Shown one piece after another: positions 43,516-46,517 of a stretch of DNA of 58,458 nucleotides (position 1 is the first letter of the stretch; every line of letters starts with the position of its first letter). Made by a program: the position numbers and the translations under genes. Origin of the DNA: a virus (taxonomy: Duplodnaviria; Heunggongvirae; Uroviricota; Caudoviricetes); IMG/VR virus record IMGVR_UViG_2724679172_000006. The stretch is one strand, 5' to 3'. The notes under the pieces are model-generated. The model had not been told where the DNA came from and ran no database searches. It saw only the letters and a program-made list of their open reading frames with translations.

Positions 43516-44346
43516 TTAGCGCGTTGCCGCGACAGGTACCAGCACACCAGCATCAAGCAATCGCTTCATCAGCCACTGCTGACCTTTGCCGGTTATACGA
43601 GTCGTGAAAGAAATCCTGCTTCCATTGCTTGTATCGATCACGGTTTCTTTAAGGGTGAAATACCCACGGGATATGTATTCTTGTTTGGGGACGTTCCTGC
43701 GTTCACCGGTTGCGATCAGAATTCCGTTATCACGCAACCAGGTGAAGAGATAGTTTTGGCCCAGGCCGAGCACTTTGGCATAGTTGCCGATTAGAACCCC
43801 GCTGGCGGTAGCAACGCGTTCAGCGAATTCGACTTTAGGTGCATCCATAAGCATTTTTTGCTCCAGCCGTTGCTTTTGCTCTGCCAGGTCGGCAGCCAAA
43901 CGGAGAGCTTCAGGGAGACTCTGCGGAATAGCAGGTTGTAATCTTCCGGTTCGATAGTCGATAAATGTCTGGTTTACCTTCAGCCGAAACGCGGGAGAAA
44001 TCCAGCCTGCGTACTCCACAGCGAGCAATTCATGGGCAAAAGTGCCGCCGCCACGGCCTTCGAACGAAACTATGCAATTCTGCATAGTTTCTTTTTCAAG
44101 CTCTTCGATGAGCTGTTTAGCTGACAGCGTTCTTAGCCATTGAGCTGGCGCTTTATGGGCACCGAGTCCGCTCGCTCTGTGTAGAGCATTAAGGTTGTAA
44201 CGGCCAGCGCGGTCGGTCGTAATTTCAACACCACAAATAACGGGCAGAGTGGTTGAAGGATCGACATTTTGATGAAGGTTTGATATATTCATATCCGCAT
44301 TGAATGTTTGTTGCATTTTTTTCTCCAAATTTGCATCAACCTTCAA
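43516..44346 (-). CDS. kilA: KilA-N domain protein with antirepressor-like C-terminal domain
   Basis: KilA-N region IVSFEGRGGGTFAHELLAVEYAGWISPAFRLKV; C-terminal 140 aa paralogous to C-terminus of Ant. Confidence 0.7.
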   Translation of the reverse strand: MKVDANLEKKMQQTFNADMNISNLHQNVDPSTTLPVICGVEITTDRAGRYNLNALHRASGLGAHKAPAQWLRTLSAKQLIEELEKETMQNCIVSFEGRGGGTFAHELLAVEYAGWISPAFRLKVNQTFIDYRTGRLQPAIPQSLPEALRLAADLAEQKQRLEQKMLMDAPKVEFAERVATASGVLIGNYAKVLGLGQNYLFTWLRDNGILIATGERRNVPKQEYISRGYFTLKETVIDTSNGSRISFTTRITGKGQQWLMKRLLDAGVLVPVAATR

Positions 44347-44386: not shown

Positions 44387-44403
44387 AAATTTATTAGAGC
44401 AAA
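44387..44403 (-). promoter_or_regulatory. C1-repressor-type operator (16 of 17) upstream of kilA-repL
   Basis: AAATTTATTAGAGCAAA. Confidence 0.6.
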
Positions 44404-44481: not shown

Positions 44482-45891
44482 TTAACCTATTGCTACTGGT
44501 TTTAACAAACCAGCATCAAGTAGCTTGCGAGTTAACCACTGCTGGCCTTTACCCGTTAATTGGGGCGTCAGCCGTATCTGGTAGCCATTTTCATCATCCA
44601 GCACCACTTCTTTCACCGTGAAATACCCGGCGTTAATGTACTGCTGGCGCGGTACGTTTTTGCGCGCACCAAAAGCCATGAGAATGCCGTTCTGGCGCAA
44701 CCATGAGAAAAGGGCGTTTTGCTTAAGTCCAACGACCTTTGCAAAGTTCCCGATCAGGATTCCATTAGCCGCTGATACCCGGTCGGCAAAATCGACTTTA
44801 GGGGCTGCGGCCACCAGCTGTTGATTTAGCTGGTGGGTTTTCTGTTCCAGTAGCTGCTTTTGTTCAGCCAGCTCGGCAGCCAGGCGCAGAGCTTCGGGAA
44901 GCGTCTGGGGGATTGCGACCGGTTGCTGTTCTTTTTGCCGGAAGTAGCTGTCTTCCAGTTTTTCAAAGAATGCCCACGCTTGCTCTGTGTCTACGATCTT
45001 AGACATGCGTGCCGCTCCGCGTTCGGTCCAGAGTATTAAGGATCTGGTCTTGGGGGAAATTTGCAACTCGCTAAAAGATAGTCGCAAACTTTTTATCTCA
45101 TCTCCTTTGATTTTAAAGAAGTGTTTACCCTCTACAAATCGTTCTTCATTGCGATTGTAGTTCTGCTGAATACGAGTAGGTGTAGTGCCATACCCTCTAG
45201 CAAGAGTCTCGGTTGTCACGACGCGTACTCCCTGCCATTCCAGAACGGGAATTTCATCAGGATGATTTTCAACATTTATAGGTTCCAATGCCTGAATCAT
45301 GGTATGTAGCGAACGGCGGACCGCTTTTGACTCGCGCGCGGCAACTCGCAGGGCTTGTTTGTAGGTCATGGTTATGACAACCATAGGCGTACCGCCACCT
45401 GGCGGCACGGTTGCACTTTTTGTGTAACCGTCCTCACCTTCTAATTCGTCGAGTATTTTTTCGATGAATTTGTTGTTCCGAACCTCTGGTTCCCCACATA
45501 ACTTACGCGCTTCATTGACCATCTTTAACAGTGTCTGGCTGTCGATTGTGTCTCCAGTGTTGGAGATAACATTCACAGCTGGTGATGGCGTAGCTGAAGC
45601 AACAGGTGCTGTTTTTTCAACATTTAAATTATTACCGGTCATTCTATGTGCCTCCTTTCTCATTTCTGCTGCCACTGTTGCGTAACGTAGACGTCCTTGT
45701 TCAATCAAATAATCCCTGATCTCGGCTATCAGTAGCCTGTTGATCACAGCCTTATCTGTTCGGGTATAAAAACGTCTGGTTATCATGAAATAGTTAGCAA
45801 TTGCGCCGGGGATCTCCCGTGTCGGCATACAGGCAGTATGCAAGGCGATCGCTTCGGCTATTTCATTACGGGTGACGAGAGGTGTTTTCAT
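44482..45891 (-). CDS. ant: antirepressor Ant
   Basis: 469 aa; antirepressor-type N-terminal region and KilA-C-like C-terminus; start overlaps stop of icd-like ORF. Confidence 0.7.
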   Translation of the reverse strand: MKTPLVTRNEIAEAIALHTACMPTREIPGAIANYFMITRRFYTRTDKAVINRLLIAEIRDYLIEQGRLRYATVAAEMRKEAHRMTGNNLNVEKTAPVASATPSPAVNVISNTGDTIDSQTLLKMVNEARKLCGEPEVRNNKFIEKILDELEGEDGYTKSATVPPGGGTPMVVITMTYKQALRVAARESKAVRRSLHTMIQALEPINVENHPDEIPVLEWQGVRVVTTETLARGYGTTPTRIQQNYNRNEERFVEGKHFFKIKGDEIKSLRLSFSELQISPKTRSLILWTERGAARMSKIVDTEQAWAFFEKLEDSYFRQKEQQPVAIPQTLPEALRLAAELAEQKQLLEQKTHQLNQQLVAAAPKVDFADRVSAANGILIGNFAKVVGLKQNALFSWLRQNGILMAFGARKNVPRQQYINAGYFTVKEVVLDDENGYQIRLTPQLTGKGQQWLTRKLLDAGLLKPVAIG

Positions 45892-46109
45892 AAACCCCCC
45901 TGAACGTCGGCAGAGAAGGGGAGGCTCCAGTAACTAAGTGAATTGCGCGAGTTAGTTGAAAAACGGGCAGTAAAAATGCAGGGGCCATCAGGCAATTGAG
46001 AGCGTGCTTCGTCTTCTGTTGCTGCGATAACGAAGTGATAGTGGTGTTTTTGGCAGGAGTAAAAGCGCCAGATAAATTCAGGATGAGTAGGGGTAGGGAT
46101 AGTAGCCAC
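45888..46109 (-). CDS. icd: Icd-like small protein, translationally coupled to ant
   Basis: 73 aa; GTG start with AAAGGAGG 8 nt upstream; stop overlaps ant start. Confidence 0.45.
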   Translation of the reverse strand: MATIPTPTHPEFIWRFYSCQKHHYHFVIAATEDEARSQLPDGPCIFTARFSTNSRNSLSYWSLPFSADVQGGL

Positions 46110-46293
46110 AATGGCAGCCTCCTTTTGCTAATTTAAGGAGCTACCGCGTGAGGTTCCAATCTCAATGGCGGTAGCACTGACTGGGTTGGAACTACCGGCG
46201 CAAAAGGGAACCGGCCTGCCTTTCGGCAGCCCAGCCAGCACTACCATTGATCTCGGAGCTATGTGCTACGTATGGTTGTGCGATGGCATGACA

Positions 46294-46400
46294 CAAAAAA
46301 AGACGCTTTTGGCGTCTATGTCGCCTTTTGCATTATCCGGGGTTCCAATCCCGGCATCCGTTTTACTAAGATGCCTGTTTAGGATAAACCGAAAATGCAT
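46294..46400 (-). ncRNA. c4: c4-like antisense regulatory RNA (approximate bounds)
   Basis: Hairpin CCGGGATTGGAACCCCGG (46337-46354) followed by terminator hairpin AGACGCcaaaAGCGTCT plus U-run (46293-46317); loop complementary to GTTCCAA elements at 46133 and 46167 in the icd leader. Confidence 0.35.
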
Positions 46401-46443
46401 TAGCACGCAAGCAAGTTAATGTAGCATATGAAGCTAAAAAAAT

Positions 46444-46460
46444 AAAATAATTAGAGCAAC
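46444..46460 (-). promoter_or_regulatory. C1-repressor-type operator (14 of 17) upstream of c4/icd/ant
   Basis: AAAATAATTAGAGCAAC. Confidence 0.45.
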
Positions 46461-46517
46461 TTGCAACCATGTAAATTATTTCTCTGGTAACTAAAATGTA
46501 TGAGTTTAATTGATATG

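What the first reader, a model, noticed from the sequence alone, without database searches (positions are those of the whole stretch)
46110..46420. c4-like antisense RNA with complementary target elements in the icd leader
Upstream of icd on the minus strand there is a hairpin whose loop (ATTGGAAC) is complementary to GTTCCAA elements in the icd leader (46133, 46167), followed by an intrinsic terminator. The terminator would end a roughly 100-nt RNA before icd. This fits an antisense RNA that occludes the icd ribosome-binding site and so blocks coupled ant translation.
Basis: partly seen in the sequence, partly recalled or inferred. Interest (0 to 1): 0.4.

Follow-up and report, generated by a model that had tools for sequence, protein, structure and literature searches.

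The report
P1-type C4 antisense immunity switch

Summary
On the minus strand the order is: C1-operator-like site and promoters; an 81-nt IsrK-like RNA (46374..46294; Rfam isrK, 58.3 bits) ending in an intrinsic terminator; C4 antisense RNA (46251..46164; Rfam C4, 76.7 bits); a2; b2 overlapping the Shine-Dalgarno sequence; icd; ant.

It has the same sequence as a2 in the icd leader, so it cannot pair with a2. It is complementary to a' (GUUCCAA, 46192..46186) inside C4. A second C4 element, b' (CCUUUUGC), is complementary to b1 and b2 (GCAAAAGG).

Among 85 relatives (52 distinct sequences, P1 included), the a and b elements fall into at least six a-alleles and nine b-alleles. They change together on all three sites: 99-100% of cells stay paired, and 8-9 of the 14-15 intermolecular pairs change on both sides in each test.

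The most likely mechanism is that of P1/P7. Processed C4 pairs with a2/b2, blocks icd translation and thereby ant. The IsrK-like RNA most likely titrates C4, as proposed for P1 and shown as activation for Gifsy-1 IsrK.

The kind is already known, and identical copies sit in many E. coli P1-like plasmids. Interest is low.

The parts
46444..46460 (-). C1-repressor operator-like site GTTGCTCTAATTATTTT, in the position of P1 Oc4 (Op51)
   Evidence: Matches the P1 operator consensus ATTGCTCTAATAAATTT with 3 mismatches. The window has 9 such sites against 0.33 expected. It aligns with the annotated P1 Oc4.
46447..46475 (-). Promoter-like site overlapping the operator (-35 TTTACA, 17-nt spacer, -10 AATTAT); equivalent of P1 P2c4/P51a
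   Evidence: Consensus scan, 9 of 12 matches. Its position relative to the operator is as in the P1 annotation. Function is inferred.
46381..46410 (-). Weak promoter-like site (-35 TTGCGT 46410..46405, 18-nt spacer, -10 TATCCT 46386..46381); equivalent of P1 P1c4/P51b. Predicted start near 46374.
   Evidence: Read from the sequence. It aligns with the annotated P1 -35 TTGACC and -10 TATAGT. At 8 of 12 it falls below the scan threshold. The predicted start coincides with the 5' end of the Rfam isrK match. Inferred.
46294..46374 (-). IsrK-like / a1b1 leader RNA: hairpin 1 (46374..46354), hairpin 2 presenting a1, single-stranded b1, then the terminator hairpin and U-run
   Evidence: Rfam RF01394 isrK, 58.3 bits (gathering score 50), full length. 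RF03163 c4-a1b1 gives 18.1 bits at 46387..46334. Fold. The hairpins are 100% paired in relatives.
   Evidence: It is complementary to a' over 7 bp. 5 of the 7 pairs change on both sides in relatives.
46324..46331 (-). b1 element GCAAAAGG
   Evidence: 8-bp complement of b'. Duplex energy -11.7 kcal/mol. 4 of the 8 pairs are compensatory in relatives.
46294..46317 (-). Intrinsic terminator of the IsrK-like RNA (stem 46317..46301, then U7)
   Evidence: Terminator scan: 6 pairs, 4 G-C, tail TTTTTTTGTGT. A terminator is kept at this position in all relatives, with a different stem sequence in the P1 group.
46164..46251 (-). C4 antisense RNA gene. The predicted mature RNA is about 46245..46167 (79 nt), by register with the annotated 77-nt P1 c4.
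   Evidence: Rfam RF01695, 76.7 bits (gathering score 45), model positions 1-87. MFE -46.4 kcal/mol, z = -5.46, 0 of 200 shuffles fold as well. The three helices are 100% paired, with 11 pairs changed on both sides.
46200..46207 (-). b' element CCUUUUGC, in the loop of the second C4 hairpin
   Evidence: It pairs with b2 and b1.
46186..46192 (-). a' element GUUCCAA, in the single-stranded joint of C4
   Evidence: It pairs with a2 and a1.
46153..46159 (-). a2 target UUGGAAC in the icd leader, presented in a small GAG/CUC hairpin loop
   Evidence: It forms 7 bp with a', at -8.8 kcal/mol. 5 of the 7 pairs are compensatory.
46118..46128 (-). b2 target GCAAAAGG (46128..46121), overlapping the icd Shine-Dalgarno AAGGAGG (46124..46118)
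   Evidence: It forms 8 bp with b', at -12.4 kcal/mol. 4 of the 8 pairs are compensatory. Its position equals P1 b2.
45888..46109 (-). icd (73 aa, GTG start; ATG in relatives)
   Evidence: ORF list. NCBIfam NF033153 Icd-like, 52.8 bits. 95% identical to P1 Icd over residues 8-73.
44482..45891 (-). ant-like antirepressor (469 aa); its start overlaps the icd stop by 4 nt
   Evidence: Pfam ORF6N plus ANT/KilAC. 80-86% identical to P1 Ant1 on either side of an inserted ORF6N segment.

Best explanation
The region is the immI-type immunity module of a P1-like phage-plasmid of E. coli.

1. Transcription starts at promoters next to or overlapping a C1-operator-like site.
2. It first makes an IsrK-like leader that carries the a1 and b1 elements and ends at an intrinsic terminator.
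3. Transcripts that read through carry the C4 gene, followed by a2, b2 (which overlaps the Shine-Dalgarno sequence), icd and ant.
4. C4 is cut out of the read-through transcript. In P1 this is done by RNase P at the 5' end.
5. C4 acts in trans. Its a' (GUUCCAA) and b' (CCUUUUGC) pair with a2 (UUGGAAC) and b2 (GCAAAAGG). This covers the icd ribosome-binding site, so icd is not translated.
6. Because ant depends on icd translation (4-nt overlap; in P1 also Rho-dependent polarity), the antirepressor is not made and C1 repression holds.
7. The short terminated IsrK-like RNA carries the same a and b sequences as the target. It most likely acts as a decoy that titrates C4 and so favours icd-ant expression.
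8. The particular a/b sequences define the immunity specificity of this phage.

Shown here: the anatomy, family membership by covariance-model score, the complementarity, and its maintenance by compensatory change.
Inferred from P1/P7 and Gifsy-1: processing, repression of translation, polarity on ant, and the decoy role.

The confidence of 0.85 applies to steps 1-6 and 8 (C4 as the antisense repressor of icd-ant). The decoy role in step 7 I put at about 0.5.
For: - Rfam matches above the gathering scores, full length and on the same strand as icd-ant: C4 at 76.7 bits and isrK at 58.3 bits.
- The order of elements equals the annotated P1 immI: Oc4, P2c4/P1c4, a1, b1, c4, a2, b2, icd, ant1 (alignments).
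- C4 folds far better than shuffles (z = -5.46).
- Window-type group (21 distinct sequences): the structure C4 helices + IsrK hairpins + a'-a2 + b'-b2 is 100% paired, with 22 pairs changed on both sides. The covariation score is 0.319 against 0.125 in shuffles (0 of 500 reach it), and slid controls are 34-48% paired. For a1-a' and b1-b', 99.4% of cells are paired and 9 of 15 pairs are compensatory.
- P1-type group (13 distinct sequences): 100% paired, with 8 of 15 and 8 of 14 pairs compensatory.
- There are 16 element combinations in 85 loci. a' always matches a2, and b' always matches b1 and b2.
- Local duplex energies are -8.8 kcal/mol (a'-a2) and -12.4 (b'-b2). Against the nearest foreign alleles they fall to -2.3 and -6.6.
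- b2 overlaps the SD sequence, and icd and ant overlap by 4 nt.
- No promoter-like site lies between the terminator and C4. In the F039 and L054 types that spacer is only about 25 nt, so C4 must come from read-through.
- In Gifsy-1, the stable RNA STnc1160 downstream of IsrK disappears when the isrK promoter is deleted. IsrK G28/G31 pair with C162/C159, shown by compensatory mutations; by position this corresponds to a1-a'.
- The decoy role of a1/b1 was already proposed for P1 (Citron and Schuster 1990, as summarised in Weinberg 2010, Additional file 1).
Against: - Nothing here shows that the RNAs are made, processed or stable in this element.
- The operator-like site has 3 mismatches to the P1 consensus. 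The P51b-like promoter is weak, at 8 of 12 matches.
- Nested folding programs cannot score loop-loop contacts. Cofolding did not recover the a/b contacts, so the energies given are for isolated elements only.
- The role of the IsrK-like RNA is uncertain. In Gifsy-1 the published model is a cis/trans structural switch involving an ORF that overlaps the C4 region, not simple titration. In P4 the analogous seqA site serves transcription termination.
- Two relatives (L011, L013) carry an a1 that no longer matches a'. Perfect a1 pairing is therefore not indispensable.
Confidence: 0.85

Rival explanations
1. The upstream hairpin-plus-terminator RNA (46374..46294) is itself the c4-like antisense repressor. 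It pairs with the icd leader and RBS to block icd and so ant.
For: The hairpin and terminator exist. The loop is complementary to one GUUCCAA downstream, at 46192..46186. That downstream site lies on the read-through transcript, so the short RNA can bind the long one, as IsrK does in Gifsy-1.
Against: - Its a1 and b1 are identical in sense to a2 and b2, not complementary to them, so it cannot cover the icd SD.
- It matches Rfam isrK and c4-a1b1, not C4.
- The true C4 match lies elsewhere, at 46251..46164.
- The homologous IsrK activates the downstream antirepressor (139-fold on the translational fusion).
Confidence: 0.04
2. a1/b1 act in cis as a transcription attenuator, in the manner of P4 (seqA-CI-seqC). 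C4 binds the nascent leader at a1/b1, next to the terminator, and changes termination efficiency. C4 thereby regulates its own synthesis and transcription into icd-ant. The leader is not a free decoy RNA.
For: - b1 lies only 6 nt 5' of the terminator stem. In the MFE fold its A-run pairs with the terminator U-run, so C4 binding could alter terminator function.
- A terminator is conserved at this place in all relatives.
- Hershko-Shalev et al. discuss this possibility for STnc1160 and the IsrK terminator, by analogy with P4 CI.
Against: [quoted passage not shown]
- Short IsrK supplied in trans is sufficient for activation.
- No alternative antiterminator pairing was identified here.
Confidence: 0.25
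3. The conserved block at 46247..46128 is a protein-coding gene, not an RNA gene. RefSeq annotates it as a 39-aa 'ash family protein', and the equivalent in Gifsy-1 is orf45.
For: - PGAP annotates this CDS in identical plasmids.
- The ATG is part of the conserved C4 5' end.
- In Gifsy-1, orf45 start-codon and stop mutations lowered activation of anrP by IsrK.
Against: - The ORF length is 14, 31, 37, 39, 41, 45 or 49 codons in relatives. In P1 itself it stops after 14 codons.
- Differences from the L054 type fall 17/14/19 on codon positions 1/2/3, and only 16 of 40 residues are kept.
- The substitutions are instead compensatory in RNA helices.
- There is no NCBIfam or Pfam hit for the peptide.
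- Some translation of part of it is not excluded, but coding does not explain the conservation.
Confidence: 0.05

Closest known systems
c4 antisense RNA and the immI operon (c4-icd-ant1/ant2) of phages P1 and P7 (Citron and Schuster 1990; Rfam RF01695; annotation of NC_005856)
   Same: - The order of elements is the same: operator, promoters, a1, b1, c4, a2, b2/SD, icd, ant.
- The C4 three-helix fold is the same.
- a' sits in the 3' joint and b' in the second hairpin loop.
- b2 overlaps the icd SD, and icd and ant overlap by 4 nt.
- Icd is 95% and Ant 80-86% identical.
   Different: - All six specificity elements differ from P1: a is UUGGAAC against UUGACAG, and b is GCAAAAGG against GUUAGUG. 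Cross-immunity at immI is therefore not expected.
- The leader scores as isrK (58 bits) rather than c4-a1b1 (18 bits); in P1 it is the reverse (35 and 51 bits).
- The spacer between terminator and C4 is longer.
- Ant carries an extra ORF6N segment.
- The operator has 3 mismatches to the consensus.
IsrK sRNA / STnc1160 / orf45-anrP of the Salmonella Gifsy-1 prophage (Hershko-Shalev et al. 2016, PMC4825925; Rfam RF01394)
   Same: - A three-hairpin RNA of about 77-81 nt ends in its own terminator, and read-through enters a C4-like region and an antirepressor gene.
- The middle-hairpin loop pairs with the downstream a'-like site.
- The stable processed RNA downstream depends on the isrK promoter.
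   Different: - Gifsy-1 has no icd. A 45-codon ORF overlapping the C4 region is coupled directly to anrP.
- The published mechanism is activation through a structural switch, and the authors do not use the C4 nomenclature (0 mentions of 'c4 antisense').
- Here a separate icd with a strong SD follows b2.
Phage P4 immunity: CI RNA with seqA and seqC
   Same: A processed small RNA is flanked upstream and downstream by sites complementary to it, all on one transcript. Hershko-Shalev et al. call SeqA a structural homologue of IsrK.
   Different: The reported output in P4 is premature transcription termination of the replication operon, not occlusion of an RBS before icd-ant. Not tested here; the description of P4 rests and on general knowledge.
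isrK + C4 pairs annotated in Stx2-converting phages (for example LC710660) and APSE phages
   Same: Both RNAs are adjacent and on the same strand, upstream of an antirepressor or regulatory gene. The same triple complementarity holds.
   Different: - The a/b alleles differ: UUAGGAC and CAAUC(G/A)AGG.
- There is no separate icd. The downstream gene starts at the equivalent ATG and is longer (215 aa).
- The host phage is a lambdoid, not a P1-like plasmid prophage.

Membership tests
Rfam RF01695 C4 antisense RNA | Covariance-model score at or above the curated gathering score, over the full model | tested here: met
   76.7 bits against 45, model positions 1-87 of 87, at 46251..46164 on the minus strand.
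Rfam RF01695 C4 antisense RNA | A long closing stem enclosing two hairpins, supported by covariation | tested here: met
   MFE -46.4 kcal/mol, z = -5.46. Helices 4-6 are 100% paired, with 7 + 3 + 1 pairs changed on both sides.
P1/P7 c4-type regulation | Two exposed elements a' and b' complementary to a2 and b2 downstream, with b2 overlapping the RBS of the first gene | tested here: met
   7 bp and 8 bp. Energies -8.8 and -12.4 kcal/mol. b2 (46128..46121) overlaps the SD (46124..46118). 9 of the 15 pairs are compensatory in relatives.
P1/P7 c4-type regulation | A second copy of the targets (a1, b1) upstream of c4 on the same transcript | tested here: met
   a1 at 46348..46342 and b1 at 46331..46324. 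99.4% of cells are paired and 9 of 15 pairs are compensatory.
P1/P7 c4-type regulation | Located in an operon c4-icd-ant with icd/ant overlap, under a C1 operator | tested here: met
   Icd-like NF033153. Ant with a KilAC domain. 4-nt overlap. The operator-like site has 3 mismatches but is aligned with Oc4; the operator part alone is only suggestive.
P1/P7 c4-type regulation | C4 is processed from a precursor (RNase P) to a stable RNA of about 77 nt that represses icd/ant | not testable with these tools
   The closing stem followed by G-C-C-A (46171..46164...CUACC GCCAUU) resembles the P1 end, and the Rfam consensus keeps NCC there. This is suggestive only.
Rfam RF01394 isrK | Covariance-model score at or above the gathering score | tested here: met
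   58.3 bits against 50, model positions 1-77 of 77, at 46374..46296.
Rfam RF01394 isrK | Three hairpins, the last a Rho-independent terminator | tested here: met
   Centroid fold. Terminator scan. All 16 pairs are 100% paired in relatives, and 2 pairs in hairpin 1 are compensatory. The fold energy alone is not significant (z = -1.46).
Rfam RF01394 isrK | Hfq binding, and activation in trans of translation of the downstream antirepressor | not testable with these tools
   Known only for Gifsy-1.
Rfam RF03163 c4-a1b1 | Covariance-model score at or above the gathering score | tested here: not met
   18.1 bits against 46.7 in the window; P1 scores 51.0. The match is nevertheless at the homologous position, and in P1 the same stretch gives 35 bits to isrK. 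The two models describe one homologous element, and the window copy belongs to the isrK-type branch.

The most novel reading that the evidence does not exclude
In P1-like phage-plasmids the a1/b1 leader, annotated in P1 only as 'putative target sites', is a discrete terminated IsrK-type sRNA. It works as an anti-antisense decoy, so immI is a three-RNA switch of mimic, antisense and target. Its specificity is built from two independently exchangeable modules, with at least six a alleles and nine b alleles that occur in many combinations. These include natural recombinants whose mimic no longer matches its C4. The held literature treats IsrK/STnc1160 and P1 a1b1/C4 separately: no held paper names both STnc1160 and C4.
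Probability: 0.4. Interest if true: 0.35.

Novelty: already known. Interest (0 to 1): 0.15.

Why it matters
It matters mainly for correct annotation.

- This is the antisense-RNA arm of P1-type immunity, which decides whether the antirepressor Ant can switch off the C1 repressor.
- The particular a/b sequences predict which related phage-plasmids are heteroimmune at immI.
- RefSeq records of identical plasmids carry a 39-aa 'ash family protein' CDS over the C4 gene and no ncRNA feature.
- The survey of relatives gives a compact natural data set of specificity alleles for a two-contact antisense system. It also ties the Salmonella IsrK activator to the P1 a1/b1 leader.
- None of this changes the known picture of how such switches work.

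Tried and rejected
- **Chance test of the 7-mer.** TTGGAAC gives 6 matches against 9.7 expected, so on its own it is uninformative.
- **Whole-molecule duplexfold and cofold** of C4 with the leader and with the IsrK-like RNA. duplexfold unfolds everything: -40.4 and -47.7 kcal/mol, matched or beaten by 59 of 500 (leader) and 25 of 500 (isrK) shuffles. Nested cofold does not recover the loop-loop contacts. I rejected these as measures and used only element-level duplexes.
- **One alignment of all 52 distinct relatives** (A2). It put the P1 group 1-2 columns out of register in the a'/a2 region. I therefore split it into A3 and A4 for the pair counts.
- **Own promoter for C4.** I looked between the terminator and C4 and found none. 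The spacer is only about 25 nt in the F039 and L054 types.
- **Coding potential of the ORF over C4.** Tested and rejected.
- **Primary P1 papers.** I tried to read PMC312442, PMC196329 and PMC523184; none is held. Statements on RNase P processing and Rho-dependent polarity in P1 therefore rest on my own knowledge of Citron and Schuster 1992, Hartmann et al. 1995 and Biere et al. 1992, and on the P1 GenBank annotation.

Full report
**What is in the sequence**

- A site resembling the P1 C1 operator: GTTGCTCTAATTATTTT at 46460..46444, with 3 mismatches to ATTGCTCTAATAAATTT. The window holds 9 such sites against 0.33 expected.
- A promoter-like site that overlaps it.
- A weaker promoter-like site (TTGCGT, 18 nt, TATCCT) that aligns with P1's annotated P1c4/P51b.
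- An 81-nt stretch of three hairpins, the last being an intrinsic terminator (46317..46301 plus U7).
- A 42-nt spacer.
- A very stable 88-nt structure (46251..46164; -46.4 kcal/mol, z = -5.46).
- A 54-nt leader, then GTG-icd (46109..45888, 73 aa).
- A 469-aa antirepressor ORF (45891..44482) that overlaps the icd stop by 4 nt.

**Family identification**

A scan of the whole window against Rfam at gathering thresholds gives two hits here, apart from three tRNAs:
- RF01695 C4 antisense RNA at 46251..46164 (76.7 bits, threshold 45, full model).
- RF01394 isrK at 46374..46296 (58.3 bits, threshold 50, full model).

A permissive scan adds RF03163 'a1, b1 targets of C4 antisense RNA' at 46387..46334, with 18.1 bits, below threshold. 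In phage P1 the same place scores 51.0 bits for c4-a1b1 and 35.1 for isrK. The isrK and c4-a1b1 models therefore describe one homologous element, the leader upstream of C4.

Icd matches NCBIfam NF033153 and is 95% identical to P1 Icd. The antirepressor has ORF6N and ANT/KilAC domains and is 80-86% identical to P1 Ant1 on either side of the ORF6N insertion.

The window is a P1-like phage-plasmid of E. coli. There are 12-kb matches at 99.7% identity in many plasmids of about 97 kb. The 381-nt regulatory region is 100% identical in at least 12 RefSeq E. coli plasmids.

**Checking the observation**

The hairpin with loop AUUGGAAC and the terminator are real. The 'GTTCCAA elements at 46133 and 46167' are not there on either strand. 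The real copies are:
- 46159..46153, which reads UUGGAAC in the RNA, the same sense as the loop.
- 46192..46186, which reads GUUCCAA in the RNA and is complementary to the loop.

The second lies inside C4. A 7-mer is not significant alone (6 found, 9.7 expected).

**Anatomy in P1 terms**

The P1 record annotates a1, b1, c4, a2, b2, icd and ant1 in this order. Aligned to it, the window has:

| Element | Sequence | Coordinates | Location |
|---|---|---|---|
| a1 | UUGGAAC | 46348..46342 | loop of the middle leader hairpin |
| b1 | GCAAAAGG | 46331..46324 | single-stranded, before the terminator |
| b' | CCUUUUGC | 46207..46200 | loop of the second C4 hairpin |
| a' | GUUCCAA | 46192..46186 | 3' joint of C4 |
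| a2 | UUGGAAC | 46159..46153 | icd leader |
| b2 | GCAAAAGG | 46128..46121 | overlaps the SD AAGGAGG (46124..46118) |

- a' pairs with a1 and a2 over 7 bp, and b' pairs with b1 and b2 over 8 bp.
- Isolated duplex energies are -8.8 kcal/mol (a'-a2), -12.4 (b'-b2) and -11.7 (b'-b1).
- By register with the annotated 77-nt P1 c4, the mature RNA should be about 46245..46167.

**Relatives and covariation**

An Icd-based search of viral contigs gave 80 loci. With P1, D6, JL22, Stx2 phage F039 and the window, all 85 carry the complete leader-C4-a2-b2 arrangement. There are 52 distinct sequences and 16 combinations of elements.
- The a alleles are UUGGAAC, UUGAGAC, UUAGGAC, UUGGCCU/UUGGUCU, UUGACAG and UUAGCAG.
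- The b alleles are GCAAAAGG, GUCAAAGG, CAAUC(G/A)AGG, GUCUAAGG, GUUAGUG, GAUUGUG, ACGAAUG, ACUUACG and ACUUGUG.
- In every combination a' matches a2, and b' matches b1 and b2.
- a' matches a1 in 14 of 16 combinations. The exceptions, L011 and L013, look like recombinants between the leader and the C4 part.

Formal counts for the window-type group (21 distinct rows):
- The full structure (C4 helices, leader hairpins, a'-a2, b'-b2) is 100% paired, with 22 pairs changed on both sides.
- The covariation score is 0.319 against 0.125 in shuffles (0 of 500 reach it). Slid controls are 34-48% paired.
- a1-a' and b1-b' are 99.4% paired, with 9 of 15 pairs compensatory.

Formal counts for the P1-type group (13 distinct rows): 100% paired, with 8 of 15 and 8 of 14 pairs compensatory.

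The shuffle control ignores phylogeny, and many rows are close relatives. The slid controls and the number of independent alleles are the stronger argument.

The window differs from its closest phage relatives JL22 and D6 by a concerted two-base change in a1, a' and a2 (GGAAC against GAGAC). This change would lower a'-a2 pairing from -8.8 to -2.3 kcal/mol. That is the signature of a distinct immunity specificity.

**Mechanism**

The best-supported reading is the P1/P7 one. C4 is excised from the read-through transcript and pairs with a2 and b2. It blocks the icd RBS and, through the dependence of ant on icd translation, prevents antirepressor synthesis.

C4 has no promoter of its own, and the spacer in the F039 and L054 types is too short for one. 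It must therefore come from read-through of the leader terminator. This is what was found for STnc1160 downstream of IsrK in Gifsy-1.

The upstream RNA cannot be the repressor, because it carries the target sequences themselves. Two lines of published work give its likely role:
- For P1, a1/b1 were proposed to compete with a2/b2 for C4 and so allow ant expression (Citron and Schuster 1990, as summarised in Weinberg et al. 2010, Additional file 1).
- For Gifsy-1, short IsrK in trans activates translation of the downstream antirepressor 139-fold. Compensatory mutations prove pairing between the IsrK middle hairpin (G28, G31) and C162/C159 downstream. By position this is a1-a'.

A cis role of a1/b1 in modulating the adjacent terminator, as in P4, is not excluded.

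RNase P processing and Rho-dependent polarity are taken from my knowledge of the P1 literature (Citron and Schuster 1992; Hartmann et al. 1995; Biere et al. 1992). Those papers could not be read here.

**The ORF over C4**

RefSeq annotates a 39-aa 'ash family protein' at 46247..46128 in identical plasmids. It corresponds in position to Gifsy-1 orf45.
- In relatives this ORF is 14 to 49 codons long; it is 14 in P1.
- Substitutions fall evenly on the three codon positions (17/14/19), and only 16 of 40 residues are kept against the L054 type.
- The same substitutions preserve the RNA helices.

Coding does not explain the conservation.

**Novelty and score**

Both RNAs belong to curated Rfam families, and the operon is the textbook P1 immI. 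The isrK + C4 pair is already annotated in Stx2 phages and noted in APSE phages. The decoy idea dates from 1990, and identical sequences are public. The finding is therefore already known.

What is modestly new is a by-product of the survey:
- The explicit equivalence of the IsrK-type sRNA with the P1 a1/b1 leader.
- The equivalence of STnc1160 with C4, which no held paper states.
- The combinatorial diversity of a and b alleles.

Interest: 0.15.

Noticed in passing
window 46128..46247 (-): RefSeq/PGAP annotates a 39-aa 'ash family protein' CDS exactly over the C4 RNA gene in 100%-identical E. coli plasmids, and no ncRNA feature there. In relatives the ORF is 14-49 codons long and shows no codon-position bias, so it is probably a mis-annotation of the RNA gene. 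It matches Gifsy-1 orf45 in position.
   Followed up: yes
L011 1229-1509 and L013 1229-1509 (IMG/VR loci): Two relatives are apparent recombinants. Their leader a1 (GAGAC or GGAAC) no longer matches their own C4 a', while a'-a2 and all the b pairings stay perfect. The breakpoint lies between the leader and C4.
   Followed up: partly
window 46095-46480 compared with L004 (P1) 18135-18485: Icd is 95% and Ant 80-86% identical to P1, yet every a/b specificity element differs and the first 7 Icd residues differ. The RNA module looks like an exchangeable cassette whose right-hand boundary lies near icd codon 8. At least six a alleles and nine b alleles occur in 16 combinations among 85 loci.
   Followed up: partly
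window 46113..46143 (-): In the predicted fold of the icd leader, the SD region AAGGAGGCUGCC pairs with GGUAGCUCCUU upstream, leaving part of b2 in the loop. The RBS may therefore be partly self-sequestered even without C4. The fold energy of the leader alone is not significant (z = -0.93).
   Followed up: no
window 46294..46331 (-): In the MFE fold of the IsrK-like RNA, the A-run of b1 (CAAAAGG) pairs with the terminator U-run and extends the terminator stem. C4 binding to b1 could therefore affect termination.
   Followed up: no
window 8082, 10174, 10223, 13847, 23907, 23918, 27440, 44387, 46444: There are nine P1 C1-operator-like 17-mers (0-3 mismatches) against 0.33 expected. They include an overlapping inverted pair at 23907/23918 and one at 44403..44387, just upstream of the kilA-like ORF, as with P1 Op53.
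   Followed up: partly
window 43516..44346 (-): A second antirepressor-type protein (276 aa, KilA-N + ANT/KilAC) lies directly downstream of ant, in the position of P1 kilA.
   Followed up: partly
window 44482..45891 (-), residues about 212-300: The Ant homologue carries an ORF6N domain segment that P1 Ant1 lacks (469 aa against 347 aa).
   Followed up: partly
window 21383..21458, 23086..23161, 23164..23239 (-): Three tRNA genes (anticodons CAT, TGT and GTT) match the set that P1 carries: trnI(CAT), trnT and trnA-Asn.
   Followed up: no
L001 2604-2742 and the L054-type loci: In the Stx2-phage and L054-type loci, the ORF that starts at the conserved AUG of C4 stays open and runs in frame into the ATG of the downstream gene (46 codons). 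In the window a TAG closes it 6 codons earlier. This is probably a by-product of the indel-free RNA structure.
   Followed up: partly
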